A DNA stretch of 64,000 nt from a virus. The stretch lies in the IMG/VR virus record IMGVR_UViG_3300027770_000039, positions 46,974 through 110,973 of that record; one strand, given 5' to 3'. Each line of letters begins with the position of its first letter. The stretch's first letter is position 1. Under the pieces are notes generated by a model, which saw only the letters and a list, made by a program, of their open reading frames with translations, did no database searches and was not told the origin of the DNA. Shown here in pieces: positions 1,985 through 16,126 of the stretch. The position numbers and the translations under genes are program-made.

Positions 1985-3574
1985 TTATTCGGTGACTCTT
2001 CCCCCACCTTTTTCATTTCTGCCCTCCCCAGAATTATCTGGTGAGTTGGCAGATCTTTCCTGAGTTCTTTTTCTAGAATTTAGGGCTTGTGCGGTTTGCT
2101 CAGATTTCTCCTGAGCTTTTAAATCTACAACCTGATCCCCGCCATCTCGAGGAATCATTCCCTTCCTAATTCTAACTTCGTTAGGGGTAATTACCTGCAT
2201 TCTTAAATATCTTTCATCAATTTTAGACTGGGTGTCTTCGTCTGTTAAAGTTAATTCATTAAACTTTAGCATTACCGCATCTGTTTTTTCTAATATAATT
2301 CTATTTAATTTTTTCTCTAAAATGTCTTGTGCTGGTCTACACACCTGCTCCTTAAACATTTTATCTGCGTCTCTTGCAGAGGCTAAACTAATTCCTTCTG
2401 GAACTCCTATTTTATTTATTGGAACTCTGTGGGCTAAAAGAATTTCGTCTCTGTTGGACTTACGATACACGTTAAATGATGATTCCTGGGTTCCAGCTTC
2501 AATTGGCTCCATTTTAAATTCAACTTTTGAATCTGGGCTATCTGCTGGAAGTGGGACATACAAGGACCTATGATTTTTTCCTTTTAATCCAACTTGGAAA
2601 AATTCTAAAAGTTTACGCTCTGACTCTGGAGAGAGCTTGGCTCCCTTAACGGTAATAATATATCTAGGTACGGCTTTGTTTTCAAAATAGTCTAAATTAT
2701 ACTTACCAGCAAATTCATTTCCTGCAGTTGCGTTTTGTGCAGAAACAATATCTGGCAATCCATAATAATTGTTCATTGGTGTGTATTTCTTTAAATGAAT
2801 AATTTCATTTGGTCTATCTGATCCATCTGCAATAGGATTTGGTGTTTCTAAATCTGCAAAGTTTCTAAAGAACACTGCCTTTCCATAAAGAAGCTGAATG
2901 AATCCGTCCCTTAGTCTACGAACACGCATGGTTTTTGCTGGTATGTGTCCTATGTATCCAATATTACCTGCAACTGTTCTTCCTATTTCAATAAATCCAT
3001 TTCCAGTTGCCTCTAGGTCAATATAGGCTTTTATTAATGTTTCTGTGAAAGTTTCTTCTTCGTTGGTTTTTTCTAGCCAAGCGTCTAAATCTTGTCTAAG
3101 CTTATTTAACTTCTTTCGAGCTCGATCTAATTGCTTTTGATCTTCAATATTATCTAGAGCATCATTTGCTTTTTTTGTTTCAACAAAAGTATACCCAAGT
3201 CCAACAATGTTGGCAACCTTTGCGTTAATTGCTGCATAGTTGTATGGTGAAATTTCATAAATTTTAGAAAGATATTCCATGTTATATGTTGGCTCAACCA
3301 GGTCAAACATTGCGTAACCAGTAACTGCTTGCTGCATGAGGTTCTGTTGTGTGGCTGTTCCGTCTTGACCAACAAATCTTTTTGATAACTCTCTAGACAT
3401 TTTTCTACGAAAGTTATTGCCCAAACCCTGAACTTTCTTTAATTCTGATTCTGTTATATTGAATGGGTCGCTGTCTAGAACAGGGGCTTTGTTATGAAAT
3501 CTAGAAAAGTCTGACGAGTCTGAAATATCTATGTTTTGAACAAAACTATTGTCTTCGTTTAGAAATTCTATCAT
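1985..3574 (-). CDS. Portal protein
   Basis: 529 aa with DLEATGNGFIE, EIIHLK..YYGLP, YFENKAVP, HRVP and ITPNEVR motifs; upstream of the protease. Confidence 0.9.
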   Translation of the reverse strand: MIEFLNEDNSFVQNIDISDSSDFSRFHNKAPVLDSDPFNITESELKKVQGLGNNFRRKMSRELSKRFVGQDGTATQQNLMQQAVTGYAMFDLVEPTYNMEYLSKIYEISPYNYAAINAKVANIVGLGYTFVETKKANDALDNIEDQKQLDRARKKLNKLRQDLDAWLEKTNEEETFTETLIKAYIDLEATGNGFIEIGRTVAGNIGYIGHIPAKTMRVRRLRDGFIQLLYGKAVFFRNFADLETPNPIADGSDRPNEIIHLKKYTPMNNYYGLPDIVSAQNATAGNEFAGKYNLDYFENKAVPRYIITVKGAKLSPESERKLLEFFQVGLKGKNHRSLYVPLPADSPDSKVEFKMEPIEAGTQESSFNVYRKSNRDEILLAHRVPINKIGVPEGISLASARDADKMFKEQVCRPAQDILEKKLNRIILEKTDAVMLKFNELTLTDEDTQSKIDERYLRMQVITPNEVRIRKGMIPRDGGDQVVDLKAQEKSEQTAQALNSRKRTQERSANSPDNSGEGRNEKGGGRVTE

Positions 3575-3978: not shown

Positions 3979-5679
3979 TTAAATATTTTGTACCACTATC
4001 CAGTCAGAATTGAAATAATCAACCGACAGCTCTGACATTTTACCTAGCTGATCTTCAATAATTGTACCTTGGGAAGATACATATTTATTAAAATGATCCT
4101 GAACTTTTTCGGCACTCAGGGCTGATTCATAAGTAGCCAAATTCTGATATAGGCTTTGCCCTCCCAAAACGCTAGATTTATTAATAGAAATTTCTCCATA
4201 TATGCTATTTTCAAAAACAATAACAACGTGGTAAAGAGAATCTTTTAAAAACAAATTATTTATATTAGTCTGGCTTGTCTTATCTACCCCATTAACGTAT
4301 ATCTTGGATATATTGCTTTTAGATATTGTATTGCTTGACCAAGTAAGGCTACTTGCGCTGTACCCGCTTGTAGCAACAGATGTAACCAACCCTCCATTTT
4401 GAATAGAATACGGTGTATAAAAAAACTCTATCGATTTTGTTGGGGTTGTCGTATTTATATAAAACGATGAAAGATTTTTTAAGCTGATGCCGTTTCTGTT
4501 ATCTGTAGAAAGTATTTCATATTTGTTATTGCTTACAGGGATGTCTTGCTGGCTGGCTATATAATTAGAGGAATTTTTTGAATAAATTTTTTGATTATTG
4601 TAAAAGCTTATGGATAAAAATTTTAAGGATGGAAGGTATACGCTATCGTCTGATGTTGTAAAATAAACCCTAATATATAAATTTCTTGTTTGACTAAAAG
4701 AGCTTAATGAATACTGGGGTACGGGTTGGCCATTAACGCAAGATTGATAGTTTTGTCCATCTATACTTACCGAAACAGATATTCCATTATCCCCGTCCCA
4801 TTCAATTCTTGAAGAGTTCATTTCTGGTCCGCTTGGGATTGTAATAAAATCCTCAATAACAATAGACTGTGAATCTCCGTTTCCCTTTACAACACCGATA
4901 AATTCTTTTTGAGAGTTATAGTATAAATTATTATCGTTAATAAAATACTGCCATGATTTATTGGCTGGATAGGAATAAGAATACTTTGTTGAAATTGATT
5001 TATCTGTAAGTTCAAAAAAATTACCTTGGTCTGGGTAAACTATTTGAGTAGGGCTTAAAGATTTATTTTCTAAATAATGAGATAAAACCTGATCTTTAGT
5101 CAAAGAATTTCTATAAAAAGATACACAATTTAAGAGCATATAGTCTAAACTATTATTAACTGGTCCTGACTTCATTGTAATAGATTGATTTGAAAAAGAA
5201 AACCCAGACAGATCTTTTTCTGCTTCTATCTTTCCATCTATATACAGTATAATTTTATTCTTATTGTATACTGCAACTATATATATAGATTTTTTTAAGA
5301 AAGGAACAGTGTACTCTATATGCTTTGTACCTATTGAAAATACTATATTACCTTTTTTATAAAATAGTCCTATATCATTAGAAGAGTCTCCTACAATTGG
5401 TATTTCTAAAGAAGAGGTAGTATTTACCCTAACCCAGCATTCTATAGAAAATTGATCATCGGAAAAATTTTTAGTCGCAATTCCATCTATATCTATGTAG
5501 GTAATGGCGGCAGTTCCAGAAAGTTTTGAAGAGTTTTCTGCACCAATAACTAGTGGTAAATTTGTGTTATCTACCGATCCGAATATTGATACCTGATTGT
5601 CAAATCCAGAAATATCATCTGTTCCGCTTGGCCAAAAAGCCAGCGGGTTGTCTGATAAAACTCTAAGATTATACGACAT
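3979..5679 (-). CDS. LamG/concanavalin-like domain virion protein
   Basis: SDNPLAFW, FSIECWV, YIVAVY..LYIDGK and YHVVIVF LamG-like strands; leaderless start (TACAAT-6nt-ATG). Confidence 0.7.
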   Translation of the reverse strand: MSYNLRVLSDNPLAFWPSGTDDISGFDNQVSIFGSVDNTNLPLVIGAENSSKLSGTAAITYIDIDGIATKNFSDDQFSIECWVRVNTTSSLEIPIVGDSSNDIGLFYKKGNIVFSIGTKHIEYTVPFLKKSIYIVAVYNKNKIILYIDGKIEAEKDLSGFSFSNQSITMKSGPVNNSLDYMLLNCVSFYRNSLTKDQVLSHYLENKSLSPTQIVYPDQGNFFELTDKSISTKYSYSYPANKSWQYFINDNNLYYNSQKEFIGVVKGNGDSQSIVIEDFITIPSGPEMNSSRIEWDGDNGISVSVSIDGQNYQSCVNGQPVPQYSLSSFSQTRNLYIRVYFTTSDDSVYLPSLKFLSISFYNNQKIYSKNSSNYIASQQDIPVSNNKYEILSTDNRNGISLKNLSSFYINTTTPTKSIEFFYTPYSIQNGGLVTSVATSGYSASSLTWSSNTISKSNISKIYVNGVDKTSQTNINNLFLKDSLYHVVIVFENSIYGEISINKSSVLGGQSLYQNLATYESALSAEKVQDHFNKYVSSQGTIIEDQLGKMSELSVDYFNSDWIVVQNI

Positions 5680-5704: not shown

Positions 5705-6394
5705 TTAATATCCGCCCACGTGAAAGACCTGGCCCGACAAGCTGGAAGACTTTTCGTCAAAAAGTAACTCTACTAGATTTGCTATATCGGTTACAGTATA
5801 CTCTTTCGGAACAACTTGACCTAGTAATAAAGTTTGAAAATAAATTTCTGGCATAAATTTTGTAAATCTAGTTCTTATTGGTCCTGGGGCTATACAGTTT
5901 GGCCTAATTTTAGTACCGCATACTTGTTTAGCTAAAGACCTTGTGTATGTTTCTAAAGCTGCTTTTGATGCTGAATACATAGACTCTGAATTTATTTGAT
6001 GCGCCGCTAAGCTTGATATGTTAACTATTGGAGTATGTTTCTCTGGGTCTACAAGAGCAAGAAATTTAGATATAACATTATAGGGACCTAAAACGTTGAC
6101 ATTCATCATTTGCTCAACTTGTGGAAAAATTTCTCCATAAGCGGGTGATGGCCAGTAAGCACCAGCACAGTTTACAATTCCAGAAATAACAATATTTCTT
6201 TCTTTAATTGATTTAAATAAACTTTCTAGTTTTTCCTGATCAACAATATCTGTTTGTATGTACTCAAAGGTATCGCTATTATCAGAGTTTCTGACGTGCC
6301 TTCCAACTCCAATAACTTCGTGCCCTAAAGAGACTAGCCTTTTGGCAACTTCATTTCCAATTCCTCTGACTGCTCCTACTACTAAAACCGTCAT
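5705..6394 (-). CDS. Short-chain dehydrogenase/reductase
   Basis: GAVRGIG, NCAG, NISS, YSASK and PG motifs. Confidence 0.9.
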   Translation of the reverse strand: MTVLVVGAVRGIGNEVAKRLVSLGHEVIGVGRHVRNSDNSDTFEYIQTDIVDQEKLESLFKSIKERNIVISGIVNCAGAYWPSPAYGEIFPQVEQMMNVNVLGPYNVISKFLALVDPEKHTPIVNISSLAAHQINSESMYSASKAALETYTRSLAKQVCGTKIRPNCIAPGPIRTRFTKFMPEIYFQTLLLGQVVPKEYTVTDIANLVELLFDEKSSSLSGQVFHVGGY

Positions 6395-7044
6395 TCTGTG
6401 CCATCCGAATAGTATGGCTTAGATCTATTGTGATACCAATTTGGAAGAGCGTATCTAATTCCAGAAGTTATTGCCGATACTTCGTGGACGTATATGTAAT
6501 TAGAAGGGAAGAACAATAAACTTCCTGCTTCTGGTTTTAAACTTACACCTGCATGTTCAAATTTAATATTTCCTCCTTCGTAATCATCGTTTAAATAAAG
6601 AAGTGCTGATAAAACTCTGCTGCTAATTCCGTGGTCAGAATGTGCTGGCAAAAAGCCAGATTCCTTATACTTTAAAAGATGCATTGTTTTTTCTCTTGAT
6701 TTAATATTTTTTTGAGAGTATGGATAAATAGAAAAATAGTCTTGCAATCCTTTTTCTAATGCCCCAAATAAAACATCTGATATTTCTTTTTGTTCTTGAT
6801 AAAATAGATCATCTTTTGAAATATCTTCAGATTTTGGGATAAACTTTTGCCAACAAAAAACAGTTTTTTCTTTTCCGCCGTGATCGTAATCCCAGGGTTG
6901 CCAGCCTCTTACATAAAGAGAATTGTATCCAACAGACTCACTTCTTTTTATTTCTAAATCTTCAATTTTTTTAATTAGAGACTTAGGGTCTGGTATTATA
7001 TTTTTATAATAAGCCATTCCTAGGGAAAGAATTTCTCTATTCAT
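6391..7044 (-). CDS. 2OG-Fe(II) oxygenase, prolyl-4-hydroxylase-like
   Basis: HSD...YLNDDYEGG...FFPS..HEV...RY. Confidence 0.9.
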   Translation of the reverse strand: MNREILSLGMAYYKNIIPDPKSLIKKIEDLEIKRSESVGYNSLYVRGWQPWDYDHGGKEKTVFCWQKFIPKSEDISKDDLFYQEQKEISDVLFGALEKGLQDYFSIYPYSQKNIKSREKTMHLLKYKESGFLPAHSDHGISSRVLSALLYLNDDYEGGNIKFEHAGVSLKPEAGSLLFFPSNYIYVHEVSAITSGIRYALPNWYHNRSKPYYSDGTE

Positions 7045-7592
7045 TAAAATACTCCAAAATCTGGGTCGGCAAAGTCCATCTTTGTGGATTGCATGTAAAG
7101 CGCAGTAAATCTATTTCCTTTAGTTATTTCTTTTACTCCGTGCAGATAATCATATTTATTTCCTGGGAAAAAAATAGCTGATAGGGATTTTGGTCTGTGC
7201 TCAAAATTTTGTTTAGGAAAATAGATTTCTCCACCTTCATAATCATCGTTTAAGTAAATTACAGTGCTGTATTCTATAAATGGTTCTTTTTCAATTGCAT
7301 CAATATGAGGACTTCCACTTTGCCCTGGTTGCCACCATGATCCAAAAGCCTTGGTAACAATTACATTATCTTTTAAATTAAAAAATTCTTTTTGTATATG
7401 GTTTGCTCTTACTGAATATTTTTTAAGAATATCCATTACTCTATTATTGTATGGAAAAGCAGTTCCACCATTTCTATCTTTATAATACTCTGGGTACGGG
7501 TTTCTTTTTGAAGGAGATTGCATCTCTTCTATCAGGGCAAATGCATCTTGTTCTGATATAAAATCTTCTACAATTTTTATCATGCTGTTCAA
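7044..7592 (-). CDS. 2OG-Fe(II) oxygenase, prolyl-4-hydroxylase-like
   Basis: HID...YLNDDYEGGEIYF...HGV...RFT. Confidence 0.9.
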   Translation of the reverse strand: MNSMIKIVEDFISEQDAFALIEEMQSPSKRNPYPEYYKDRNGGTAFPYNNRVMDILKKYSVRANHIQKEFFNLKDNVIVTKAFGSWWQPGQSGSPHIDAIEKEPFIEYSTVIYLNDDYEGGEIYFPKQNFEHRPKSLSAIFFPGNKYDYLHGVKEITKGNRFTALYMQSTKMDFADPDFGVF

Positions 7593-8410
7593 TTTATTAC
7601 TCCTTTAAAGTTTAAATATCTTTCTCCGCCAACTTTGTCTGTTAATGAACCAGAAGGATCATACAAAACATCGTTTGTTGAAAATGGTAGACTTGATATT
7701 TCTAATCCAAACACCTGTTTAATGCTGGAACTCCATTTACTCACAAACTCATTATACCCGTGATATATAGAAAAAGGCAAATATTCGACCTTATCTAACT
7801 CAATTGTTTTATTTTTAAAAAAAGTTGTAGGAAGGGCAAAGATTTTTGTAAAATTAAAATATATAGCTAAATGTTCTCTTTCTCCATGATATTTTAAATA
7901 ACCTGGCAATTTGTTATATAAAAAAGACTTAGATTTTGTAAAAATAAAATCTTTATCTATATATTTTGTCAATGTGTCTTCAGAGATAGGCTCTTTTTTA
8001 TATGAAACAATAAATGGGTTTTCTAAATATGGTATAAGTCTGTGATTTCCAGAAATTATACAATCTTCATTGAGGCTGAGTAGTTCTATTTTTTGAACTA
8101 GATCTTCGTCCCAATTTTTATTTAGGCTTACCCCATCTCCAATTAGCAAAAAGTATTCTTTTTTGAAAAGTCTATACCCTTCTTGTTTATGCAAAATTGG
8201 GCTTTTAATGCTATCCCATTTTACATATTTGTAATAAATTTTTACATTTGAATAGTTAGACTTTAAACTTTTTTTTCTATCAATATTGTTTTGATCAATT
8301 ATATAAAAAAATAAATTGTTTAATCCACTGGAATTTTCTATATTTTTTTCAACTAATTCTATTAAATCTTTATTTTGAAAAGAATACAAAACTATGCCAA
8401 TATCTTTCAT
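7589..8410 (-). CDS. Glycosyltransferase-like protein (GT-A; resembles the GT60/GlcNAc-transferase pattern)
   Basis: IVLYSFQN..IIDQ..YFLLIGD...NWDEDL..YHGE pattern; the DxD-like motif is degenerate. Confidence 0.5.
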   Translation of the reverse strand: MKDIGIVLYSFQNKDLIELVEKNIENSSGLNNLFFYIIDQNNIDRKKSLKSNYSNVKIYYKYVKWDSIKSPILHKQEGYRLFKKEYFLLIGDGVSLNKNWDEDLVQKIELLSLNEDCIISGNHRLIPYLENPFIVSYKKEPISEDTLTKYIDKDFIFTKSKSFLYNKLPGYLKYHGEREHLAIYFNFTKIFALPTTFFKNKTIELDKVEYLPFSIYHGYNEFVSKWSSSIKQVFGLEISSLPFSTNDVLYDPSGSLTDKVGGERYLNFKGVIN

Positions 8411-9087
8411 TCAAACAGATCCGTAAAAATACTATCTTCATTCATTGGTCCCTTTGGAACTAATATAATATCATAGGCAATTGTCATTCTTGGCTCATCC
8501 CCGTACCAGTCGTCTCTGCCATGTGGGTTGCCAGTTTCTGATAAAATAGCTCTATTGTTTTTATTAATATTTTCAAAAATATCTTTATTGTTGATTTTAT
8601 AATAAGTAATCGAAGGTTCTGCTTTTACGCAGTAGAATCCATGTAGCTGTGGAAATCCTGAACCGTCCATATGGTCGTGGAAAAACGAACTGTCTTTTCT
8701 TGGGTCTACCGAATGGACGTTGTTAATTATTTTTTTATCTAAATTAAACCAACCATGGGTAATAAATTTTGACGAATTGTCGTTATAGCCATAGTACTCG
8801 CAAGCTTCTCTTGTCATGTCAGCAATAGCTTCTTTTAACTTTTTTATTTCTGGGTTGTCAAATTCCCAAATATTATACCTGTCACTATTTTTTGTAGCAA
8901 TAGCATCCAGAATTCCTGGGTCTTGAGCTAGGGCTTTATTTAAGCCTTCTCCCATTTCTTTCCTTGCCTGTTCAACTAATTCATTATTTTTTTCTAACAA
9001 AAAACTATAAAGATTTTCTAAATTATTATCTAAAGTTCTTTCAAAAAATTTATGATCTTTTTTTTCTTTCATAGAAGTGGTATCCAA
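8407..9087 (-). CDS. 2OG-Fe(II) oxygenase-like protein (paralog of 9069..9719)
   Basis: GWFN..HDH..HGFYCV..PH..PRMTIAYD. Confidence 0.75.
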   Translation of the reverse strand: MDTTSMKEKKDHKFFERTLDNNLENLYSFLLEKNNELVEQARKEMGEGLNKALAQDPGILDAIATKNSDRYNIWEFDNPEIKKLKEAIADMTREACEYYGYNDNSSKFITHGWFNLDKKIINNVHSVDPRKDSSFFHDHMDGSGFPQLHGFYCVKAEPSITYYKINNKDIFENINKNNRAILSETGNPHGRDDWYGDEPRMTIAYDIILVPKGPMNEDSIFTDLFE

Positions 9088-9719
9088 TGCTGAGGACTTG
9101 CTTTTGCCTCAATGATAGAATTTAATGGCATAATATCATAAGCAATTGTAATTCTTGGTCCTTCCCAGTCCCAACTTCCCATAGCATGAGGGTGACCCAT
9201 TTCTGAAACAATCATTCTGTTATCTATATTGTGATTTTCAGTTTCTTTTTCAAAAACTTTGTAATAAGTAATTGATGGTTCTGCTTTTACGCAATAAAAT
9301 CCGTGAAAATAAGGAGCATAAGGACCTCCATGATCGTGCCAATCTAGTTTTCCAACTTCTGCATAATTTATGTTAAACCATCCTTGCACCATGTATTGCT
9401 GTTTATCAAAATCAATATCATAATAAGAACAAGCTTCTTTTATTACATCAGAAAGCTCTTTATACAGTTTGTAAATTCCTGGATGATAAAATTGAAAAAC
9501 ATTGTAGTCTCTCCATTTTATAGTAGAAACACTACCAGACTCTTTCCAATAGTCTGACTTGCCCACTTCTGTAATACCTTTAATGCTTAAATTTTCAATT
9601 TTAGAATATTGATCTTGTAAAAATAAAGACAAATCTTGTAAATCATTATCTAAAATCCTTTCAAAAAACTTGTGAGGTTTTCCGCTAGGTTTATTTTTTC
9701 CAGATAGGAAGTATTCCAT
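9069..9719 (-). CDS. 2OG-Fe(II) oxygenase-like protein
   Basis: GWFN..HDH..HGFYCV..HPH..PRITIAYD. Confidence 0.75.
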   Translation of the reverse strand: MEYFLSGKNKPSGKPHKFFERILDNDLQDLSLFLQDQYSKIENLSIKGITEVGKSDYWKESGSVSTIKWRDYNVFQFYHPGIYKLYKELSDVIKEACSYYDIDFDKQQYMVQGWFNINYAEVGKLDWHDHGGPYAPYFHGFYCVKAEPSITYYKVFEKETENHNIDNRMIVSEMGHPHAMGSWDWEGPRITIAYDIMPLNSIIEAKASPQHWIPLL

Positions 9720-10472
9720 TTATTTCTCTTTTCTTGTGTAGTTTTTTCTTTTCCATATAAAATCTTTATAATATGAATATATTGATATTCTTCTTTTTTC
9801 TTCTTTGATTTTTTTTACCACTATGTCTTCTTTGGAGTAATCCAATGACATTTCCCAGTTTTCTCTTTTAAATGGAAAAACTTGAAATATAGGCGTTCCT
9901 TTTTTAATAGTTCCCATAAAATTTCTTTTTAGAAAAAATGCTGTAAATACTGGTGCGTTCCATTCATCGGAGTCTATAACTCCAGAAAGAGTGGTAAATG
10001 GAAGATCATGTCTATTGTGTGGGTGTGTAATTAAAATAGAATACCCTGGTGGAGTTTCGCAATGCCAAGGAATTTTCCAGCCATAATGCATTGGATGGTG
10101 TTCATGTGGAACTGCAACTTCTATCATGTTTCTTTTATCTACTAGCATAAAATTATTTGTATTTTTAATAGAAGGAAACCCATTTTTATCTAAACTTACC
10201 TCAATATCATCTTCTAGGCAAAACATATAACCTGCTGTTAAGGAATCAAAAAATGGCATACATAATTTAGTAGAGCCAGCGCTACCGTCTGTTCCTCTAT
10301 CATTTACTGGAAACAACCTTAGCAAATCATTTGAGGTTTGAAATCTGGAAAGCTTTTTATACCACTCTGGCAAATTATTTATGGCAGGAGAGGGTGCGTC
10401 ATAGTCTTTTGGTTCAAAATTAAGATTAACCTCTGCTGGGGTGAATTTAATTATTAAATTATTATCACTCAT
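9720..10472 (-). CDS. Conserved phage protein (DUF6065-like), paralog of 11148..11879
   Basis: LPEWYK, KxCxxxFDSxTxGY, TxPGYS, GxIDxD, GTPIxQxxPFKRxxW. Confidence 0.65.
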   Translation of the reverse strand: MSDNNLIIKFTPAEVNLNFEPKDYDAPSPAINNLPEWYKKLSRFQTSNDLLRLFPVNDRGTDGSAGSTKLCMPFFDSLTAGYMFCLEDDIEVSLDKNGFPSIKNTNNFMLVDKRNMIEVAVPHEHHPMHYGWKIPWHCETPPGYSILITHPHNRHDLPFTTLSGVIDSDEWNAPVFTAFFLKRNFMGTIKKGTPIFQVFPFKRENWEMSLDYSKEDIVVKKIKEEKRRISIYSYYKDFIWKRKNYTRKEK

Positions 10473-11172
10473 TAATAATTTTTTTAATAACCTTTTCTGT
10501 AGCTTTTATAGAAATATAAAATAGTGGAGTATTTCTCTCTATTAACCTTATTTGTTTTTCATTAGATAAAAAACAAAAATCTATAAAAGTTGGTTCCTTT
10601 ATTATATCATTATTATTAGTTTTTTCAAAGGTCCCACTAGTCTCAATAATGCATATTACTGGGTCTTTTTTAATATTTTTTATACTATACTCTGCATCGC
10701 AATCAACAATCCATGGTACATATATCTTAAAAATTCTGTCCGAAACTTGTTTAAAATTATTTTTATTTAACAAGTCTTTAAAGCTTTCAATAGACAAAAA
10801 TGATGGATAAAACTGCCTAACCATAGATTTTTCAGATGCATAAAATATACTAGAAACCTGTTTATTGCTTGTTGGATGTCCTTGCCAAAGAATATCTGAA
10901 TAATTCTTGTATATTAGATTTATCTCATTTTTAGAAACTATCTCTATTTCTGGTTTGATTCCAAAATTATCTACATATAAATTTATTGGTTTTAAAACAT
11001 TATTTTTATATTTTTTTAAAACTTGATCCCAGGTTGCCCAATCATAAAAAACGTTGCATTCTTTTAAAATATCTTTAAAACTCATTGAAGACATCTCTAG
11101 CCAAGAATTAGATTCAAATGGTGCCCTTAATATGGGAAACGTTTTATTTATCGAAATATCTTTTTTGACCAC
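10465..11172 (-). CDS. Hypothetical protein, possibly a distant DUF6065-like member
   Basis: 235-aa ORF overlapping both neighbours; FKIYVPW and IERNTPLF resemble the neighbouring paralogs. Confidence 0.55.
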   Translation of the reverse strand: MVKKDISINKTFPILRAPFESNSWLEMSSMSFKDILKECNVFYDWATWDQVLKKYKNNVLKPINLYVDNFGIKPEIEIVSKNEINLIYKNYSDILWQGHPTSNKQVSSIFYASEKSMVRQFYPSFLSIESFKDLLNKNNFKQVSDRIFKIYVPWIVDCDAEYSIKNIKKDPVICIIETSGTFEKTNNNDIIKEPTFIDFCFLSNEKQIRLIERNTPLFYISIKATEKVIKKIINE

Positions 11173-11879
11173 ATTTTTTTCCTATAACCATTTCTAAAAA
11201 CTGATCTAACCGAAAGTTGCTGGGCTCTAATTTGTGTATCAGAATCTTTTTCTTTATTAAGCGAGCTTTCCCAATCATCTCTCTTAAAAGGAATAATTTG
11301 AATAATTGGAGTGCCTTGTTCAATTACTCCTTTAAATCCTTTTTCTACAAAAAAAGACAAATAACCATCAGAAGCGTATTTATCTGTGTCTATCAACCCT
11401 GGGATAGCTTGTAGAGGGCTTTTTTCTCCGTGCATTGGGTTTATAAACAAACAACTATACCCTGGCTCTGTTCTGGCAACCCACATTGGATGTATTCTTA
11501 TAACTTGCTTATGAAAATTATTAGGAATAGGGTATTCTTTTATTTGTTCAGATAAATGATGAGCTAATAAAAATTTTTGAAACTCTCTTGTATCATTTGG
11601 AATATCAATTTTTAAAATATCTCCTGTAGCATCTATGCTTAAATCCATAGGGCAAAGTAAGTAATATCCAAAAGTCATAGAATCAAAAACAGCTTGACAT
11701 TTTTTTACTGTTAAAAGCATATTTCCGCTATGAACAGATGTATCATCATTTAAATAGCTTTTTTGTTTTTTCCACCACTCTGGAAGCAATGAAGATACCG
11801 ATTGAGGATTTGGGAATATTTTTTCAAGTCCTCTATACTTTGGAAGAAATTCAATCTTTATCAAACTAATGGAATCCAT
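11148..11879 (-). CDS. Conserved phage protein (DUF6065-like)
   Basis: LPEWWK, KKCQAVFDSMTFGY, TEPGYS, GLIDTD, GTPIIQIIPFKRDDW. Confidence 0.65.
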   Translation of the reverse strand: MDSISLIKIEFLPKYRGLEKIFPNPQSVSSLLPEWWKKQKSYLNDDTSVHSGNMLLTVKKCQAVFDSMTFGYYLLCPMDLSIDATGDILKIDIPNDTREFQKFLLAHHLSEQIKEYPIPNNFHKQVIRIHPMWVARTEPGYSCLFINPMHGEKSPLQAIPGLIDTDKYASDGYLSFFVEKGFKGVIEQGTPIIQIIPFKRDDWESSLNKEKDSDTQIRAQQLSVRSVFRNGYRKKMWSKKIFR

Positions 11880-12421
11880 TTCTGATAGTATTGTCTGTGC
11901 AAATTTTGTAATGTAGATACAGAAAAATATAAAAACATACTATCTTTATTTATTGTATCACAAAAATCTATTATATCTCCTTTATCAAATAGAATTAAGG
12001 TACCTTCTGGCGTATCTATTTCTTTTTCATTAATTATCATTTTATTGTTATTGCTTTTAATTACATATATCCCAGAAAAATTTAACCTTGTTCTATCTGG
12101 AGTTGTCACCAAAAAATTGTTGACAGATTGATCTAGTAAATTTCCTAATAAATAGTAATAATTATTTTCAAAGTTTATTTTGTTTTTTTTGCACTCTTCT
12201 TTAATAATTTTAGATATTTCTAAATATAATTTGTATATTTCTTTATGGTACATTCCAAAAAAATTAAAAGTTTTATAATCAATTAAAGAAATTTTTTTTG
12301 TTTTAATTTTTGTTCTGACTCCCCATTTTGCAGAACCTACTTCTTCATACATTGAGTCAATCATATCTTTATATTGTTTATATAAGAATTCGTTTCTAAT
12401 GTTTTCTAGTTTTGTTATCAT
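11861..12421 (-). CDS. Degenerate paralog of the 9069..9719 oxygenase lacking metal ligands
   Basis: Shares YHxxIYKLYxE(I/L)SxxIKExC and the C-terminal QxWIPL; no HDH or HPH. Confidence 0.6.
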   Translation of the reverse strand: MITKLENIRNEFLYKQYKDMIDSMYEEVGSAKWGVRTKIKTKKISLIDYKTFNFFGMYHKEIYKLYLEISKIIKEECKKNKINFENNYYYLLGNLLDQSVNNFLVTTPDRTRLNFSGIYVIKSNNNKMIINEKEIDTPEGTLILFDKGDIIDFCDTINKDSMFLYFSVSTLQNLHRQYYQKWIPLV

Positions 12422-12426
12422 AATTT

Positions 12427-13068
12427 TTATTTCTCTAAAATTTCATTTGGGTTTTTTTCGTAAGGTCTGAGAGAATGCCAAGTTGCTGGTAAAATAGGAT
12501 CTTTAAAGTGCTCTAAGTCTGGCTCTGTAATAATTTCTTTTGATTCTCCCAAAATTATATTTTCATTTTTTTTATTTTTTGATCTTTTAAACCTTAAAGC
12601 TAATATTAATTTAGCTGATTGTTTATGCATAGCAGATCCAGTTTTGCTTGCAGAAACACCTTGTCTAACTCTAACATTATACTTTGCCCACCAAACAGTA
12701 TATCCCAATATGGCCAATGAAATATTTATTTTTTTTCTTCTATAATAAGGCTGGCAGTAAACTCTATTTATCACAGCATCTTTACATTTTTTTATATTAT
12801 CATTTTGTATGTTTGAAATGTCTATCCATGAAGTAGGATATTCGTTATTTATAAAATTAGAAAATATTAATGTTCCAGAAGGATTTTTATCATTAAGGTA
12901 AAGGCATTCTATGCCTTTGTTTCCATTTACGTCTTGCATTAAAGTCCATTGAATCCAAGAACCTTTTATATACTTAGGGTATTTTCTAAATATTGGAAAA
13001 ATAAAACCTTTTGTTGATTTTGCACCAACAAATCCCATATTGTAAATATGCTTAACTAAATTAAGCAT
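12427..13068 (-). CDS. GNAT-like acetyltransferase (tentative)
   Basis: INRVYCQPYYRRKKI resembles GNAT motif A. Start 13068 avoids overlap with the upstream gene. Confidence 0.45.
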   Translation of the reverse strand: MLNLVKHIYNMGFVGAKSTKGFIFPIFRKYPKYIKGSWIQWTLMQDVNGNKGIECLYLNDKNPSGTLIFSNFINNEYPTSWIDISNIQNDNIKKCKDAVINRVYCQPYYRRKKINISLAILGYTVWWAKYNVRVRQGVSASKTGSAMHKQSAKLILALRFKRSKNKKNENIILGESKEIITEPDLEHFKDPILPATWHSLRPYEKNPNEILEK

Positions 13069-13073
13069 GCTTA

Positions 13074-14390
13074 TTAGGCAGGGGTTGTAGGGTCGGTGTC
13101 TCCTGCTGTAGAGTCTTTCCATTGCTGGTAAAGTACCTCTAGAGATTCAGAAACGCTTTGGTTTGGCTCAGTAATAACGTTAGGTGATGTTATGTCTAGT
13201 CTAACTGAGTCGTGGACTAAAGAGTTGTCTGTAAAGAATACGTCATAAGGCTCTGTGTTAATAGTAATAACTAACTCTGGTCCCTCTGAAACTCTTAGCT
13301 CAATAATTGGCTGCCAATCATTGAATGTTGGAGAGTAGATTAAATCTGTTTCTACAATTTCATTAGCTGAAATAAATCTTGCTATTCCATCTCTTTTGGT
13401 TAGAACCCAGTGTGTATTTGTATATTTATTTCCGTTAATTACATAAGTGGTCATTGCAATGTTTGCTGAAATAGACACCACTGTTGTTTCAATATCAGTA
13501 TTAATTTGTGGGGCAGCAGATGACCAAGATTCAATAATTTCTTCTAGTCCTACTCCGTCCATTGGCAAATCATCAATTGCTGCTGAGTACAGAATATCTC
13601 CTGCAGAAACGTTGTGAGCTAACACAAGACCTTCAGGAACCTTTGAATGAATTAATGTATCTGCTCCAATTGATTTTCCTGGTGTAAAGCCGAACGGGGT
13701 GAAGCCGAACGGGGTGAAGCCGAACGGGGTGAAGCCGAACGGGGTAAAGCCGAACGGTGCAAAGCTGAATGGGGTTGTAGTAATATTTCCTGAATAATTA
13801 GACCATGCTCCATTTCCATTAGCATTTCTAGCCCGCACTCTAAAGTTCCAAACAAAGTCATTGTTTTGGCTTGCAAAATCTACGCTGTTTGTTCCAACTG
13901 CTACGGTCTTATTGTCGTCTCCGCCTCCACCATTATCTTCTAAATAATAATCAATAATTGCTGATCCACCGTCTGCTGGTGTTGACCAGGAAGCTCTATT
14001 GTTTTGTGCTCCATTGTTTGCTGCTGACGGAGTTGAAATTGTATCAGGCACTGTTGTTGCAGTAATGCTATTAGACGCAGCAGATGCTGGCGAGTTTCCA
14101 ACTGCATTTGTTGCTATAACTGTAAATGTGTATGCTGTATTTGATTGTAGACCAGTTACAGACAGGGGAGATGATGCTCCTGACGCAGTGTATGATCCTG
14201 GAGAGGATGTTACTGTGTATGATGTGGCTGCAGGTGAGTCTTCTGGTAAAGAAAACGTTACATCAGCACGTCCATTATTGAATGCACGACCTGAACCTAC
14301 ATCTGTTGCGGCTACTGACGTTGGTGCTTTTGGCTCCAAAAAGTCATTTGATGCCTGTGCCTTTTTACCGAATTTCTTACCTGCTGCCAT
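13074..14390 (-). CDS. Virion-associated protein: 2x FN3 + (PFGFT)n repeat + Hint (intein-like) domain
   Basis: FN3 motifs (VTGLQSNTAYTFTVIATNAVG; FRVRARNANG). Hint runs SIGADT...TNTH...EPYDVFFTDNSLVHD/S (13673-13209). Confidence 0.8.
   Translation of the reverse strand: MAAGKKFGKKAQASNDFLEPKAPTSVAATDVGSGRAFNNGRADVTFSLPEDSPAATSYTVTSSPGSYTASGASSPLSVTGLQSNTAYTFTVIATNAVGNSPASAASNSITATTVPDTISTPSAANNGAQNNRASWSTPADGGSAIIDYYLEDNGGGGDDNKTVAVGTNSVDFASQNNDFVWNFRVRARNANGNGAWSNYSGNITTTPFSFAPFGFTPFGFTPFGFTPFGFTPFGFTPGKSIGADTLIHSKVPEGLVLAHNVSAGDILYSAAIDDLPMDGVGLEEIIESWSSAAPQINTDIETTVVSISANIAMTTYVINGNKYTNTHWVLTKRDGIARFISANEIVETDLIYSPTFNDWQPIIELRVSEGPELVITINTEPYDVFFTDNSLVHDSVRLDITSPNVITEPNQSVSESLEVLYQQWKDSTAGDTDPTTPA
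13683..13772 (-). repeat. 15-bp tandem repeat encoding PFSFA(PFGFT)5
   Basis: CCGTTCGGCTTYACC units visible directly; GC-rich for this genome. Confidence 0.95.
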
Positions 14391-14422: not shown

Positions 14423-16126
14423 TTACGCCATCAAGTCGCCGTAGACAACCCATGTATTTGCTGCTCTCTTAAAGAGAGTTGCAGATGACCAGGTTGTACG
14501 AAGTTTCAAACCAGGTGTTGCGTTAACAGTTACTCCACCAGCACCTGCAATTGTAACCTGACCAGTTGATGTCTGAAGGATATCAATAGAGGTTCCGACT
14601 GGGAAGTTTAGTGTTGCATCTGTTGGAATTGTAAGTGTTAGTGCTGAAGATGATCCCATTTCAATTAAGTCATCTCTTTCAGTTAATGCTGAAAGTGTAT
14701 AAGATGCTGTCTTCTGAATGATTGGTGTCCGTGATGGTACACCTTCCATTGTTTGTGTTCCGTCTGTAAATGCTACACCTGAAGCAGAGGCTGTAATTAA
14801 TCCTGTTGCTGTAATTGCTGGTGCTGTTACTGTACCAGTAAATGTTGGTGAAGCAATTGGTGACTTTGTAGCAATTGAGTTTGTAATTGTTGTTGAGAAT
14901 GATGCGTCATTTCCAAGAGCAGTTGCTAACTCATTAAGAGTATCAAGTACTGCAGGTGCTGATGCTACAAGGTTTGAAACTGCTGTTCCTACGAATGCTG
15001 TAGTTGCAACCTGTGTAGTTGATGTTCCTGCTGTTGCAGTTGGGGCAGTTGGTACACCAGTAAGTGCTGGTGAAGCAAGTGGTGCCTTTAGATCAAGTGC
15101 TGTCTGCGCTGCAGTTGAAACTGGCTTTGCTGTGTCTGCAGTATTATCAACATTTCCAAGACCAACCATTGACTTTGTAATACCAGAAACTGTTCCAGTG
15201 AAAGTTGGTGAGGCAAGGTCAGCCTTAAGTGCCAATCCTGAGTTAACAGTTGCAGTTAATGCTAATGCTGATGTGTCTGAAATACCGTGTACGCTTGTTG
15301 TATCTGCGGTGTGGGTATCTAAATTTGTTGCTGCTGTGGTAGCGGCAGCTGTAATTGCTGCTGCTCTAGCAGTTGCTTCTGCTGTAATTGCTGCGCCTCT
15401 AGCAGTTGCTTCTGCTGCGACTGCACCAGTAACATAAGTTTGATTTGCTAATACTGATGTGTCTGCAATTCCGTGTACAGATGTAGTATCATTGTTGTGA
15501 GCAGTAATTTCAGTATTGACATAGTTCATTGTTGCCAATGCTGTCATGTCTGCTACTCCGTGAACGTTTGTGCTAACCTGACCGTGTGTTGCAATTCCTG
15601 CGACTGTCTGTGTTTGAATATCGTCTACATATTTCTTAGTTGATGCATCATAATCTAATGTAGGTGTTGCAAGACCTGTGATTTTGCTATTACCCATTGC
15701 AATAGCGCCAGTCATTGTTCCGCCAGATTTTGGTAATCTAGTATTTATGCTAGTATTCATTGTAGTTACAAAATTTGCGTCATCATTGATGGCTGCTGCT
15801 AACTCGTTAAGAGTATCTAGTACTCCAGGAGCTGCGTCAATTACATTTCCTAATTGATTAATCGGCACCTGTCCTTGTGCATCTAGTGATGCTACTCCGT
15901 TGGCAACGCCTCTATCGGCTACCTCAAGATAGTCTCCAAGTGTATTTGTTAAATCTGAAGGAACAACGTTTGCATAAGCTAGGGATGTCCAAGCAGTAGA
16001 ACCTGTTCCAATTTTAGTTTTTCTAGTATCTGACTCTACGCCCATTTCTCCTGCGGCTAGAGTTGGATTTGCTGAAGTCCATTGTGCTGCGGTACCTCTG
16101 CGAATTTGAATTCTTACTGTTGACAT
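14423..16126 (-). CDS. Tail fibre protein with Mtd-N-like N-terminus
   Basis: IQIRRGTAAQWTSANPTLAAGEMGVE; fibre repeats ASPxxTG.PTAPT..TTQVATTA and LDTLNELA. Confidence 0.8.
   Translation of the reverse strand: MSTVRIQIRRGTAAQWTSANPTLAAGEMGVESDTRKTKIGTGSTAWTSLAYANVVPSDLTNTLGDYLEVADRGVANGVASLDAQGQVPINQLGNVIDAAPGVLDTLNELAAAINDDANFVTTMNTSINTRLPKSGGTMTGAIAMGNSKITGLATPTLDYDASTKKYVDDIQTQTVAGIATHGQVSTNVHGVADMTALATMNYVNTEITAHNNDTTSVHGIADTSVLANQTYVTGAVAAEATARGAAITAEATARAAAITAAATTAATNLDTHTADTTSVHGISDTSALALTATVNSGLALKADLASPTFTGTVSGITKSMVGLGNVDNTADTAKPVSTAAQTALDLKAPLASPALTGVPTAPTATAGTSTTQVATTAFVGTAVSNLVASAPAVLDTLNELATALGNDASFSTTITNSIATKSPIASPTFTGTVTAPAITATGLITASASGVAFTDGTQTMEGVPSRTPIIQKTASYTLSALTERDDLIEMGSSSALTLTIPTDATLNFPVGTSIDILQTSTGQVTIAGAGGVTVNATPGLKLRTTWSSATLFKRAANTWVVYGDLMA

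What the first reader, a model, noticed from the sequence alone, without database searches (positions are those of the whole stretch)
5705..14390. FN3-(PFGFT)n-Hint protein followed by an operon of tailoring enzymes: possible virion peptide-modification (RiPP-like) system
Seen: gene 14390-13074 has two FN3 domains, then PFSFA(PFGFT)5PGK, then a Hint domain starting immediately. Ten closely coupled genes follow inside the virion module: GNAT-like, a dead oxygenase paralog, 2-3 DUF6065-like, two HDH-type oxygenases, GT-like, two P4H-like oxygenases and an SDR. Established: Hint domains self-cleave at their N-terminus; P4H-type enzymes hydroxylate Pro; GT60 enzymes glycosylate hydroxyproline (Dictyostelium Skp1 pathway). 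Inference: autoprocessing would expose a Pro/Phe repeat that these enzymes hydroxylate, glycosylate or acylate, giving a decorated fibre tip or released modified peptides.
Basis: partly seen in the sequence, partly recalled or inferred. Interest (0 to 1): 0.82.

Follow-up and report, generated by a model that had tools for sequence, protein, structure and literature searches.

The report
Self-cleaving phage repeat protein with hydroxylase cassette
An uncultured 111-kb lake phage encodes a fibre-type protein that ends in a conserved Pro-Phe-Gly-Phe-Thr repeat capped by an intein-like self-processing domain. It is followed by eleven co-transcribed genes dominated by protein-hydroxylase-type and glycosyltransferase-type enzymes, so the repeat is a testable candidate substrate, though no chemistry has been shown.

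Summary
Gene 13074-14390 (minus strand) encodes 2 FN3 domains, PFSFA(PFGFT)5 (aa 207-236), an intein/BIL-type Hint domain (Ser240, TNTH327, His393-Asp394|Ser395) and a 44-aa tail. Eleven tightly coupled genes follow, not ten.

What I refined:
- The "DUF6065-like" proteins have a dUTPase/dCTP-deaminase fold. In several virus lineages they sit beside ribonucleotide reductase, so they probably handle a nucleotide rather than a peptide.
- The "HDH" proteins are 2OG-oxygenase (DSBH) folds.
- I and J are intact P4H-type oxygenases.
- The GT family's nearest Pfam model is the Skp1 hydroxyproline GlcNAc-transferase (GT60).

In about 110 related lake-phage loci the repeat gene is directly followed by genes from the same few families. 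The peptide repeat is conserved despite synonymous codon drift. Some relatives lack Hint and end right after the repeat. (FFPP)n relatives carry 4-9 P4H-like genes, against 0-2, once 4, for PFGFT relatives.

My best reading (about 0.42) is that Hint self-removal exposes a repeat that the hydroxylase/glycosyl cassette decorates. "RiPP-like released peptides" is not supported. All the evidence is comparative and rests on few independent events. The scan has found this module before in other related genomes.

The parts
14423..16126 (-). Fibre-type protein with an Mtd_N domain, directly upstream of REP (context)
   Evidence: Pfam Mtd_N 3.5e-15. It is syntenic in the related loci.
13074..14390 (-). 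REP: a 438-aa protein made of a conserved N-terminal segment, 2 FN3 domains, the (PFGFT) repeat, a Hint domain and a 44-aa tail
   Evidence: More than 400 metagenome homologues exist, on contigs of 104-116 kb.
13776..14333 (-). Two FN3 domains (about aa 20-205)
   Evidence: Pfam fn3 4e-12, two stretches. phrog_6977 'minor tail protein'.
13683..13772 (-). Repeat PFSFA(PFGFT)5, aa 207-236
   Evidence: The peptide is conserved in relatives while copy number varies from 2 to 20 and codons vary synonymously.
13209..13673 (-). Hint (intein/BIL-like) domain, aa 240-394: Ser1, TNTH (block B), ...LVHD, then Ser+1
   Evidence: The profile hits inteins and BIL in the PDB. Relatives hit Pfam Intein_splicing and Hint_2. 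K239, S240, H327, H393, D394 and S395 are invariant in A1.
13077..13208 (-). 44-aa C-terminal tail after the Hint domain, with a conserved LxxLYQQW motif
   Evidence: Alignments A1 and A4. The tail is present only in the Ser1/His-Asp-Ser clade.
12427..13068 (-). A: 213-aa protein of unknown function, weakly GNAT-like
   Evidence: The start is set by alignment A7. Acetyltransf_1 matches 3 of 13 relatives, best E 1.2e-3. No PDB match.
11861..12421 (-). B: degenerate paralog of F/G that lacks the metal-binding and 2OG-binding residues
   Evidence: Relatives' B, F and G regions cross-match at 27-31% identity in tblastn. By eye on the sequences, the His and Arg that are conserved in F/G are absent from B.
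11148..11879 (-). C: DUF6065-like protein with a dUTPase/dCTP-deaminase fold
   Evidence: phrog_7084 1e-43. AF2 pLDDT 89.6. Foldseek top hits are dUTPases. The VIA top 22 rows are all dUTPase, dCTP deaminase or viral dUTPase-related proteins, Z 9.6-5.8, then 4.7.
10465..11172 (-). D: possible degenerate DUF6065 paralog
   Evidence: hhalign of A8 against A2: probability 28%, E 6e-4. No Pfam family is credible.
9720..10472 (-). E: second DUF6065-like (dUTPase-fold family) protein
   Evidence: phrog_7084 1.7e-32. It aligns with C in A2, with invariant D79, D164, D166 and Q194 (numbering of C).
9069..9719 (-). F: 2OG/Fe(II)-oxygenase-fold protein ('HDH' type, like 2OG-FeII_Oxy_5)
   Evidence: AF2 pLDDT 92.7. 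Foldseek: 3bvc and 2rg4, then prolyl hydroxylases including Dictyostelium PhyA. ESM features 0.96 to PF13759 clusters. His139, His178 and Arg189 are invariant; His128 and His130 are conserved in at least 90% of sequences.
8407..9087 (-). G: paralog of F
   Evidence: 37% identical to F in alignment A3; 38-39% cross-matches in relatives.
7589..8410 (-). H: GT-A-type glycosyltransferase-like protein. The family's nearest model is Pfam GlcNAc (GT60, the Skp1 Hyp GlcNAc-transferase)
   Evidence: 9 of 16 family members hit PF11397 and two exceed the cut-off (29.2 and 24.2 bits against 21). The window's own copy gives no hit. One distant homologue carries PF00535.
7044..7592 (-). I: P4H-type 2OG-Fe(II) oxygenase
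   Evidence: phrog_61 2OG oxygenase. HxD...H...R is invariant in A5. The profile hits P3H1, the B. anthracis and PBCV-1 P4H and PHD2.
6391..7044 (-). J: P4H-type 2OG-Fe(II) oxygenase
   Evidence: Pfam 2OG-FeII_Oxy_3, 54.8 bits.
5705..6394 (-). K: short-chain dehydrogenase/reductase
   Evidence: Pfam adh_short, 124 bits. The glycine-rich N-terminus and YSASK are seen.
3979..5679 (-). LamG/ConA-like 566-aa protein between the cassette and the portal (context)
   Evidence: Pfam Laminin_G_3 8.3e-9; portal at 1985-3574.

Best explanation
REP is a fibre-type virion protein made as a precursor. Its C-terminal Hint domain performs an N-O acyl shift at Lys239|Ser240 and removes itself, with or without the 44-aa tail. 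The mature protein is then FN3-FN3-(PFGFT)5-PGK, with the repeat at its free C-terminal end. The eleven genes translated from the same late transcript form a protein side-chain modification cassette. Two P4H-type oxygenases (I, J) and two Oxy_5-like 2OG oxygenases (F, G) hydroxylate residues of the repeat, Pro first and perhaps Phe. The GT60-like transferase (H) adds a sugar to hydroxyproline or Thr. The SDR (K) and the weakly GNAT-like A tailor the sugar or its nucleotide donor. The dUTPase-fold proteins (C, E, perhaps D) bind or hydrolyse a nucleotide or nucleotide-sugar rather than the peptide. B is a catalytically dead paralog, possibly a scaffold.

Shown: the domain and fold assignments, the conserved catalytic residues, the operon layout, the synteny and the selection on the peptide. 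Inferred: that cleavage happens, that REP is in the virion, and every enzyme-substrate link.
For: 1. The Hint assignment rests on profile matches and conserved motifs. Distant relatives start with a canonical Cys1 ('C[IV]HEDTL') and end '...LVHNK*', so they have no C-extein to splice. Other relatives lack Hint and stop 2-4 residues after the repeat, which mimics the cleaved product.
2. Junctions from REP through K overlap or leave gaps of 25 nt or less. No convincing terminator lies on the coding strand.
3. In all related loci with downstream DNA, the main repeat gene (the copy behind the t1-t2-Mtd fibre genes) is followed at once by genes of the same few families, despite much gain, loss and duplication. 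A second, separate cassette of repeat/Hint gene and then a P4H-like gene lies upstream in several relatives.
4. I and J keep HxD...H...R. Their best solved relatives are protein prolyl hydroxylases.
5. The H family matches the GT60 model, whose known members put GlcNAc on Hyp of Skp1 or on Thr (PMC6939170). Relatives add an Asp/Asn beta-hydroxylase-type gene.
6. PFGFT is kept at the peptide level while codons drift.
7. Enzyme content goes with repeat type. (FFPP)n cassettes have 4-9 P4H-like and 0-1 Oxy_5-like genes. PFGFT/FGAFG cassettes have 0-2 (once 4) P4H-like and 0-4 Oxy_5-like genes. A Pro-free GF(H/Y) repeat has no P4H-like gene.
8. There is a precedent: the chlorovirus PBCV-1 P4H acts on Pro-containing peptides (PMC7019647).
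Against: - No chemistry has been shown and the phage is uncultured.
- All loci belong to one phage lineage, so adjacency and the repeat-type pattern may reflect only two or three ancestral events.
- Over 70 non-redundant cassettes, %Pro and the P4H-like count do not correlate (Spearman 0.005). Poly-Pro relatives have only 0-1 P4H-like genes.
- Twelve non-redundant second-copy repeat genes have no enzyme gene next to them.
- In distant relatives the P4H-like gene is separated from REP by an RNR gene.
- DUF6065/dUTPase-fold genes occur without any repeat protein in haloviruses and a cyanophage.
- The window's own H does not reach the GT60 model, and only one Asp of a DxD-like motif is conserved.
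- The genome carries other oxidative cargo (P450, catalase), so an accessory-gene island is plausible.
- For PBCV-1, hydroxyproline was not found in virions (PMC7019647).
Confidence: 0.42

Rival explanations
1. The cassette is accessory cargo unrelated to REP, acting on nucleotides or on the host. It sits in an inherited hotspot between the fibre genes, RNR and the portal. The dUTPase-fold proteins and oxygenases act on nucleotides, nucleotide-sugars, DNA bases or host metabolites.
For: - C has a dUTPase fold with a GxIDxD motif like dUTPase motif III.
- DUF6065 genes lie beside RNR in halovirus HRTV-5, in cyanophage S-RIM4 and in the 'C-only' relatives. A third copy in this genome lies 4 kb from RNR, next to sulfotransferase-like and P450 genes.
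- The genome has no canonical dUTPase, whereas its relative BillNye has one.
- The cassette is more AT-rich (GC 0.23-0.37) than REP (0.42).
- Cyanophages carry orphan Oxy_5-type oxygenases without such repeats.
Against: - The genes at this position always come from the same few families rather than random cargo.
- They are translationally coupled inside the late structural operon.
- The nearest characterised relatives of I, J and H act on polypeptides.
- The Pfam dUTPase model does not detect C or E. In the one local hhalign match to a real dUTPase, which was not significant, its motif II 'PRS' lies opposite 'PMH' in C.
Confidence: 0.28
2. The cassette modifies other virion proteins rather than the REP repeat. 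Candidates are the Mtd-type fibre, the LamG protein and, in relatives, collagen-like fibres.
For: - Relatives carry a fibre with collagen repeats and a Peptidase_S74 chaperone inside the same block. X-Pro-Gly is the classic P4H site.
- Several fibre-type genes flank the cassette.
Against: - The window has no collagen-like gene in the block.
- REP is the one constant upstream neighbour. Its repeat type, not the flanking fibres, goes with enzyme content.
Confidence: 0.13
3. This is a true RiPP-like system: the repeat is excised and released as a modified peptide natural product.
For: - The layout is a repeat 'core' next to tailoring-type enzymes.
- A dead paralog (B) could act as a recognition scaffold. 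This is inference only.
Against: - Hint cuts only on the C-terminal side, so the repeat stays attached to two FN3 domains.
- The Pfam scans of the cassette genes named no protease, transporter or known recognition-element family.
- The N-terminus is a conserved fibre-type segment.
Confidence: 0.03
4. In this clade the Hint domain does more than hydrolytic self-removal. Either it splices (Ser1, His-Asp, Ser+1) and joins the 44-aa tail to the repeat, or it transfers the repeat's C-terminus to another nucleophile as Hedgehog does. This rival concerns the Hint step only and is compatible with the best explanation.
For: - All class-1 splicing elements are present. Asp can replace the terminal Asn (PMC4031507).
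- Ser395 and the tail motif LxxLYQQW are conserved in this clade.
- Nucleophile and terminal residue co-vary: with Ser1 the terminal residue is Asp or Glu in about 70 proteins, and with Cys1 it is Asn in about 8-10. This suggests that the C-terminal residue is functional.
Against: - No homologue has the repeat fused directly to the tail.
- Relatives end 'HNK*' or 'FDR..*' with 1-6 residues after Hint, and Hint-less forms end at the repeat.
Confidence: 0.15

Closest known systems
Bacterial intein-like (BIL) domains, for example PDB 2lwy, and mini-inteins
   Same: A Hint domain of about 155 aa without an endonuclease. It has an N-terminal Ser/Cys, an (S/T)xxH block B and a C-terminal His-Asn/Asp. 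It sits near the C-terminus of a variable, non-housekeeping protein. The profile match is E 1.7e-5 to 8.5e-7.
   Different: It always follows a conserved aromatic/Pro repeat in phage fibre-type proteins. In this clade it has Ser1 and a terminal Asp. No activity has been tested.
Chlorovirus PBCV-1 prolyl 4-hydroxylase
   Same: [quoted passage not shown] The I/J profile hits its structure 5c5t.
   Different: Here there are two P4H-type and two Oxy_5-type enzymes, a GT, an SDR and others, in one operon directly behind a single repeat gene. The repeat has one Pro in five residues. The host is a bacterium.
Skp1 hydroxyproline glycosylation pathway of Dictyostelium and Toxoplasma (PhyA plus Gnt1/GT60)
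   Same: A P4H-type hydroxylase is paired with a GT whose family matches the GT60 'GlcNAc' model (PMC6939170). PhyA is among the structural neighbours of F.
   Different: The window's own GT is below threshold for the model. The target would be a repeat rather than a single Pro. No downstream GT74, GT2 or GT77 enzymes are present.
C-terminal intramolecular chaperone domains of phage fibres and tailspikes (Peptidase_S74, endosialidase type)
   Same: A C-terminal domain of a fibre protein that removes itself after folding. Such an S74 fibre occurs in the same block in relatives.
   Different: The fold and chemistry differ: a Hint acyl shift rather than the S74 chaperone's own cleavage chemistry (from general knowledge, a Ser-Lys dyad). 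A chaperone role for Hint here is only an analogy.
Trimeric dUTPases and dCTP deaminases (for proteins C and E)
   Same: The fold: VIA Z 9.6-5.8 over 104-141 aligned residues, with all top 22 rows from this superfamily. There is also a GxIDxD motif and a conserved Gln.
   Different: C and E are about 100 residues longer and are not detected by Pfam PF00692. A dUTPase-type motif II or V is not evident. The function is unknown.

Membership tests
Hint superfamily (intein / BIL / Hedgehog autoprocessing domains), REP aa 240-394 | [quoted passage not shown] | tested here: met
   Ser240 is invariant in 21 close homologues. It is Cys in distant ones.
Hint superfamily (intein / BIL / Hedgehog autoprocessing domains), REP aa 240-394 | Block B (T/S)xxH | tested here: met
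   TNTH at 324-327, with H327 invariant. A few Cys1 relatives have SxxQ.
Hint superfamily (intein / BIL / Hedgehog autoprocessing domains), REP aa 240-394 | Significant profile similarity to known Hint domains | tested here: met
   The A4 profile against PDB sequences gives 9hth 6.7e-7, 6riz 8.5e-7 and 2lwy 1.7e-5. Pfam Intein_splicing matches 8 of 26 and Hint_2 4 of 26 members. The window protein alone gives no Pfam Hint hit.
Hint superfamily (intein / BIL / Hedgehog autoprocessing domains), REP aa 240-394 | HINT fold | not tested
Hint superfamily (intein / BIL / Hedgehog autoprocessing domains), REP aa 240-394 | Autoprocessing activity | not testable with these tools
   Needs expression and mass measurement.
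Canonical splicing intein | C-terminal His-Asn followed by a Cys/Ser/Thr +1 nucleophile | tested here: inconclusive
   The protein has His393-Asp394|Ser395. Asp-ended inteins are known (PMC4031507), but relatives end HNK* or FDR..*.
Canonical splicing intein | Inserted in a conserved host protein whose intein-free alleles have contiguous exteins | tested here: not met
   Hint-less homologues stop after the repeat. None joins the repeat to the tail.
P4H-type 2OG-Fe(II) oxygenases (I, J) | HxD...H iron triad and a basic residue that binds 2OG | tested here: met
   H96, D98, H151 and R161 (numbering of I) are invariant in 25 sequences.
P4H-type 2OG-Fe(II) oxygenases (I, J) | Match to the family model or to solved members | tested here: met
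   J scores 54.8 bits on 2OG-FeII_Oxy_3 against a cut-off of 27. The A5 profile hits P3H1 at 2.3e-12, the B. anthracis P4H at 1e-10 and the PBCV-1 P4H at 5e-6.
P4H-type 2OG-Fe(II) oxygenases (I, J) | Hydroxylation of peptidyl proline | not testable with these tools
   Needs an enzyme assay.
2OG-FeII_Oxy_5 (PF13759) family (F, G) | DSBH fold with a His-rich metal site and an Arg | tested here: met
   AF2 pLDDT 92.7; Foldseek hits 3bvc, 2rg4 and prolyl hydroxylases. H139, H178 and R189 are invariant; H128 and H130 are conserved in at least 90%.
2OG-FeII_Oxy_5 (PF13759) family (F, G) | Match to the Pfam model | tested here: not met
   None of 44 members hits PF13759 at E <= 0.1. Only language-model features point to it (0.96). 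F and G are therefore filed as 'like', not as members.
GT60 / Pfam GlcNAc (PF11397) polypeptide GlcNAc-transferases (H) | Match to the family model | tested here: inconclusive
   The window's H gives no hit. Of 16 homologues, 9 hit and 2 are above the cut-off (29.2 and 24.2 bits against 21).
GT60 / Pfam GlcNAc (PF11397) polypeptide GlcNAc-transferases (H) | DxD-type metal/nucleotide-sugar motif of GT-A enzymes | tested here: inconclusive
   Only one Asp (D92, in 'GDxV') is nearly invariant. This was judged by eye.
dUTPase / dCTP deaminase superfamily (C, E) | Fold | tested here: met
   Z 9.6-5.8 for 22 superfamily members, and the next unrelated row is at 4.7.
dUTPase / dCTP deaminase superfamily (C, E) | The five conserved dUTPase motifs, or a match to PF00692 | tested here: inconclusive
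   PF00692 finds nothing in the genome. A motif III-like GxIDxD and a motif IV-like Gln are conserved. Motifs II and V are not evident. The reading is by eye.
RiPP biosynthetic system | A short precursor with leader or follower and core, and a dedicated protease and/or exporter | tested here: not met
   The precursor has 438 aa with two FN3 domains. No peptidase or transporter family was found among the 11 genes.
Short-chain dehydrogenases/reductases (K) | Rossmann glycine motif, catalytic YxxxK and a match to the family model | tested here: met
   adh_short 124 bits. GAVRGIG and YSASK are seen.

The most novel reading that the evidence does not exclude
The Hint domain may work like Hedgehog. 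The ester formed at Lys239-Ser240 would be resolved not by water but by a nucleophile on the host envelope, on another virion protein or on a small molecule. The hydroxylated or glycosylated aromatic repeat would then become covalently tethered. The cassette, including the dUTPase-fold proteins, would make or activate the adduct. That would be a phage-encoded, self-contained protein-ligation and decoration system.
Probability: 0.08. Interest if true: 0.88.

Novelty: new variant of a known kind. Interest (0 to 1): 0.62.

Why it matters
Phage and cyanophage genomes hold many 2OG-Fe(II) oxygenases, and this lineage holds several DUF6065 genes. I know of no substrate for either, and a full-text search for DUF6065 found no paper.

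This module puts P4H-type and Oxy_5-type oxygenases and a GT60-like transferase directly behind one repeat protein. That protein is conserved at the peptide level and is a cheap candidate substrate to synthesise, so the question becomes testable at the bench.

The module would also add a new setting for Hint domains, as removable caps on phage fibre repeats. It gives DUF6065 a fold (dUTPase-like) and a recurring genomic partner (RNR).

The module is widespread in lake metagenomes: more than 400 homologues, and DNA runs from several freshwater studies hold large shares of the stretch.

Tried and rejected
- Complex prediction of I with REP aa 198-245 gave no answer: score 0.02 against a mark of 0.32. 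This is neither for nor against binding.
- Megablast of the region against the phage records found nothing. tblastn with REP gave only an FN3 hit. tblastn with F gave nothing.
- PDB sequence-profile searches for C/E, F/G, A and H gave nothing credible.
- hhalign of F/G against I/J, of C/E against I/J and of C/E against the BillNye dUTPase gave nothing significant.
- NCBIfam added nothing.
- Searches with the H and A profiles found only the same phage group, without useful names.
- The genome-contig scan gave two real hits on short phage-like contigs binned with Chitinophagaceae MAGs. Three other hits are spurious frames in GC-rich genomes. I draw no host conclusion from this.
- The promoter/terminator scan was uninformative.
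- A first attempt to measure the %Pro of the tract from HMM coordinates was misplaced. It was replaced by an entropy-based tract.
- Literature searches for DUF6065 and for Hint in tail fibres found nothing relevant.
- Contigs of two lake metatranscriptome studies cover REP and, in one run, G-F-E. DNA carry-over cannot be excluded, depth cannot rank genes, and uncovered parts mean nothing.
- I considered DNA hypermodification (oxygenase plus GT plus dUTPase-like). It ranks low because I and J are P4H-type; Tet_JBP scores only 16.7 bits.

Full report
**Setting.** The window is the right-hand 64 kb of a complete 110,973-bp virus record with terminal repeats. GC is 0.35. DNA runs from several freshwater studies hold large shares of the stretch. 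The portal is 58% identical to that of Streptomyces phages of the Stanwilliamsviridae. BillNye shows the same layout: RNR, then a large protein, a small gene, the portal, the protease and the major capsid protein. All genes discussed here lie on the minus strand.

**The repeat protein (REP, 13074-14390).** The translation shows these parts:
- a conserved N-terminal segment;
- two FN3 domains (Pfam);
- PFSFA(PFGFT)5 at aa 207-236;
- P-G-K, then a 155-aa domain from Ser240 to Asp394;
- a 44-aa tail (numbering).

The DNA of the repeat is a 15-nt tandem array of 5.9 copies. More than 400 homologues exist in metagenomes, many on contigs of 104-116 kb. In an alignment of 21 of them the repeat is kept letter for letter while copy number varies. 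K239, S240, H327, H393, D394 and S395 are invariant. Across IMG/VR loci the number of units runs from 2 to about 20. The codons used for P, F, G, F and T vary freely within and between arrays. Selection therefore acts on the peptide and not on the DNA.

**The C-terminal domain is a Hint domain.**
- Pfam does not see it on this protein alone.
- A profile of 26 diverse C-domains hits a DNA-polymerase intein, the gp41-1 intein and a bacterial intein-like domain among PDB sequences (E 6.7e-7 to 1.7e-5).
- Eight members hit Intein_splicing and four hit Hint_2.
- The more distant members start with the textbook 'C[IV]HEDTL' and end '...LVHNK' at the stop codon.
- Nucleophile and terminal residue co-vary. 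With Ser1 the terminal residue is Asp (rarely Glu), and with Cys1 it is Asn.
- Inteins that end in Asp or Gln are known and can still cyclise (PMC4031507).

Three observations favour self-removal over splicing. Relatives have only 1-6 residues after the Hint domain. No homologue joins the repeat directly to the tail. Several relatives have no Hint at all and stop 2-4 residues after the repeat (for example '...PFGFSPPFR*'). In the window's clade Ser+1 and the tail motif LxxLYQQW are conserved, so splicing or a Hedgehog-like transfer cannot be excluded.

**The eleven genes behind REP.** Junctions overlap or leave at most 25 nt.

| Gene | Coordinates | Reading |
|---|---|---|
| A | 12427-13068 (start corrected by alignment) | only weakly GNAT-like |
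| B | 11861-12421 | paralog of F/G without their conserved His and Arg |
| C, E | 11148-11879, 9720-10472 | strong phrog_7084 matches, weak DUF6065 matches; dUTPase/dCTP-deaminase fold |
| D | 10465-11172 | at best a degenerate paralog of C/E |
| F, G | 9069-9719, 8407-9087 | 2OG-oxygenase (DSBH) fold |
| H | 7589-8410 | GT-A-like; the family's nearest model is GT60 |
| I, J | 7044-7592, 6391-7044 | P4H-type 2OG oxygenases |
| K | 5705-6394 | ordinary SDR |

- **C and E.** The AlphaFold model of C (pLDDT 89.6) has a dUTPase/dCTP-deaminase fold. Foldseek's best hits are dUTPases. In an all-against-representatives search the top 22 rows are all dUTPases, dCTP deaminases or viral dUTPase-related proteins (Z 9.6-5.8), and the next row is at 4.7. 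A GxIDxD motif and a Gln recall dUTPase motifs III and IV. The Pfam dUTPase model finds nothing, and motifs II and V are not evident.
- **F and G.** The model of F (pLDDT 92.7) has a 2OG-oxygenase fold. It is nearest to two uncharacterised marine proteins and then to prolyl hydroxylases, including Dictyostelium PhyA.
- **H.** Nine of 16 relatives hit Pfam 'GlcNAc' (PF11397, the Skp1 hydroxyproline GlcNAc-transferase family, GT60). Two are above the cut-off, although the window's own copy is not. GT60 enzymes add GlcNAc to Hyp of Skp1 or to Thr of trypanosome mucins (PMC6939170).
- **I and J.** They keep an invariant HxD...H...R. Their profile hits P3H1, the B. anthracis and PBCV-1 P4H and PHD2.

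**Comparative evidence.**
- Two IMG/VR scans, one seeded by the repeat and one by the Hint domain, gave about 110 distinct loci.
- With family HMMs built here, every main repeat gene (the copy behind the t1-t2-Mtd fibre genes) that has downstream DNA is followed at once by genes drawn from the same small set. The set is DUF6065-like, Oxy_5-like, P4H-like, GT, A and SDR. Relatives add a TP_methylase, an Asp/Asn beta-hydroxylase-type gene or a collagen/S74 fibre.
- The smallest versions have only one DUF6065-like or one Oxy_5-like gene before an RNR gene, often with a P4H-like gene after the RNR gene.
- A second cassette (short fibre, repeat/Hint protein, P4H-like gene) lies some kilobases upstream in several relatives.
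- Repeat chemistry and enzyme content go together:

| Repeat type | Non-redundant cassettes | P4H-like genes | Oxy_5-like genes |
|---|---|---|---|
| (FFPP)n | 6 | 4-9 | 0-1 |
| PFGFT/FGAFG | 43 | 0-2 (once 4) | 0-4 |
| GF(H/Y), no Pro | 1 | 0 | 1 |
| poly-Pro (690-aa proteins) | 5 | 0-1 | 1 |

There is no simple monotonic law. The Spearman correlation of %Pro with the P4H-like count is 0.005 over 70 cassettes. The number of independent evolutionary events is small. Earlier notes of this scan on related genomes reported a proline-dependent pattern. My test supports a difference by repeat type but not a dose relation.

**What speaks against a REP-centred reading.**
- DUF6065/dUTPase-fold genes occur next to RNR in haloviruses and in cyanophage S-RIM4. 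The phage collection shows no match to the REP Hint domain.
- This genome has a third, canonical DUF6065 gene (27038-27769). It overlaps a sulfotransferase-like gene and lies near a P450 and a class II RNR.
- The genome lacks a canonical dUTPase, whereas BillNye has one.
- These proteins therefore most likely handle a nucleotide, and their place in the cassette may reflect nucleotide-sugar supply or mere neighbourhood with RNR.
- The genome also carries a catalase and a P450, so oxidative accessory genes are common in it.

**Verdict.** A self-processing repeat protein followed by a coherent protein-hydroxylation/glycosylation-type cassette is real and widespread. The repeat is the likeliest substrate (about 0.42). 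'RiPP-like released peptides' is not supported, and the DUF6065 genes should not be counted as peptide-tailoring enzymes. Nothing in the searched literature describes this module. The scan has met it before in other related genomes.

Noticed in passing
window 24477-25919 (+): The phage encodes a full-length cytochrome P450 (Pfam p450 3.9e-72). This is unusual cargo for a phage.
   Followed up: no
window 48100-49380 (-): The phage encodes a catalase (Pfam Catalase 1e-86).
   Followed up: no
window 26296-27769 (-): A third, canonical DUF6065 gene (27038-27769, 73 bits) overlaps a sulfotransferase-like gene (26296-27045). It lies about 4 kb from a class II RNR (21234-23168). DUF6065 also neighbours RNR in halovirus HRTV-5, in cyanophage S-RIM4 and in distant relatives of this phage.
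   Followed up: partly
whole genome G000: The Pfam dUTPase model finds nothing in the 111-kb genome, while the related Streptomyces phage BillNye has a canonical dUTPase. The dUTPase-fold DUF6065 proteins may stand in for it.
   Followed up: partly
L002:16821-17528, also L006, L007, L010: Close relatives (about 92% identity) carry an extra TP_methylase-family gene between H and I. The window lacks it.
   Followed up: no
L040:12693-13298; L012:18768-19946: Relatives add an Asp/Asn beta-hydroxylase-type gene (PF05118, 2e-12) inside the cassette. They also add a fibre with collagen repeats and a Peptidase_S74 self-cleaving chaperone between the SDR and the LamG gene.
   Followed up: no
Hint domains of loci L001-L153: There is near-perfect co-variation. 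With Ser1 the terminal residue is Asp or Glu, and with Cys1 it is Asn. Some Cys1 forms have SxxQ instead of SxxH in block B.
   Followed up: partly
L082, L083: Two short phage-like contigs (GC 0.34) with REP homologues are binned in Chitinophagaceae MAGs. The portal and genome layout, by contrast, resemble actinophages (Stanwilliamsviridae). The host is unresolved.
   Followed up: no
L049:976-1926, L050:982-1933: In a second cassette, the repeat part (121 aa) and the Hint part (192 aa) are separate adjacent ORFs followed by a P4H-like gene. This may be a split or frameshifted form.
   Followed up: no
L126-L133: In 690-aa Cys-rich proteins with long poly-Pro tracts, the same Hint domain with the same A plus dead-Oxy_5 gene pair behind it follows the tract. 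The A/B pair is thus the most widely kept neighbour of Hint-capped proteins.
   Followed up: partly
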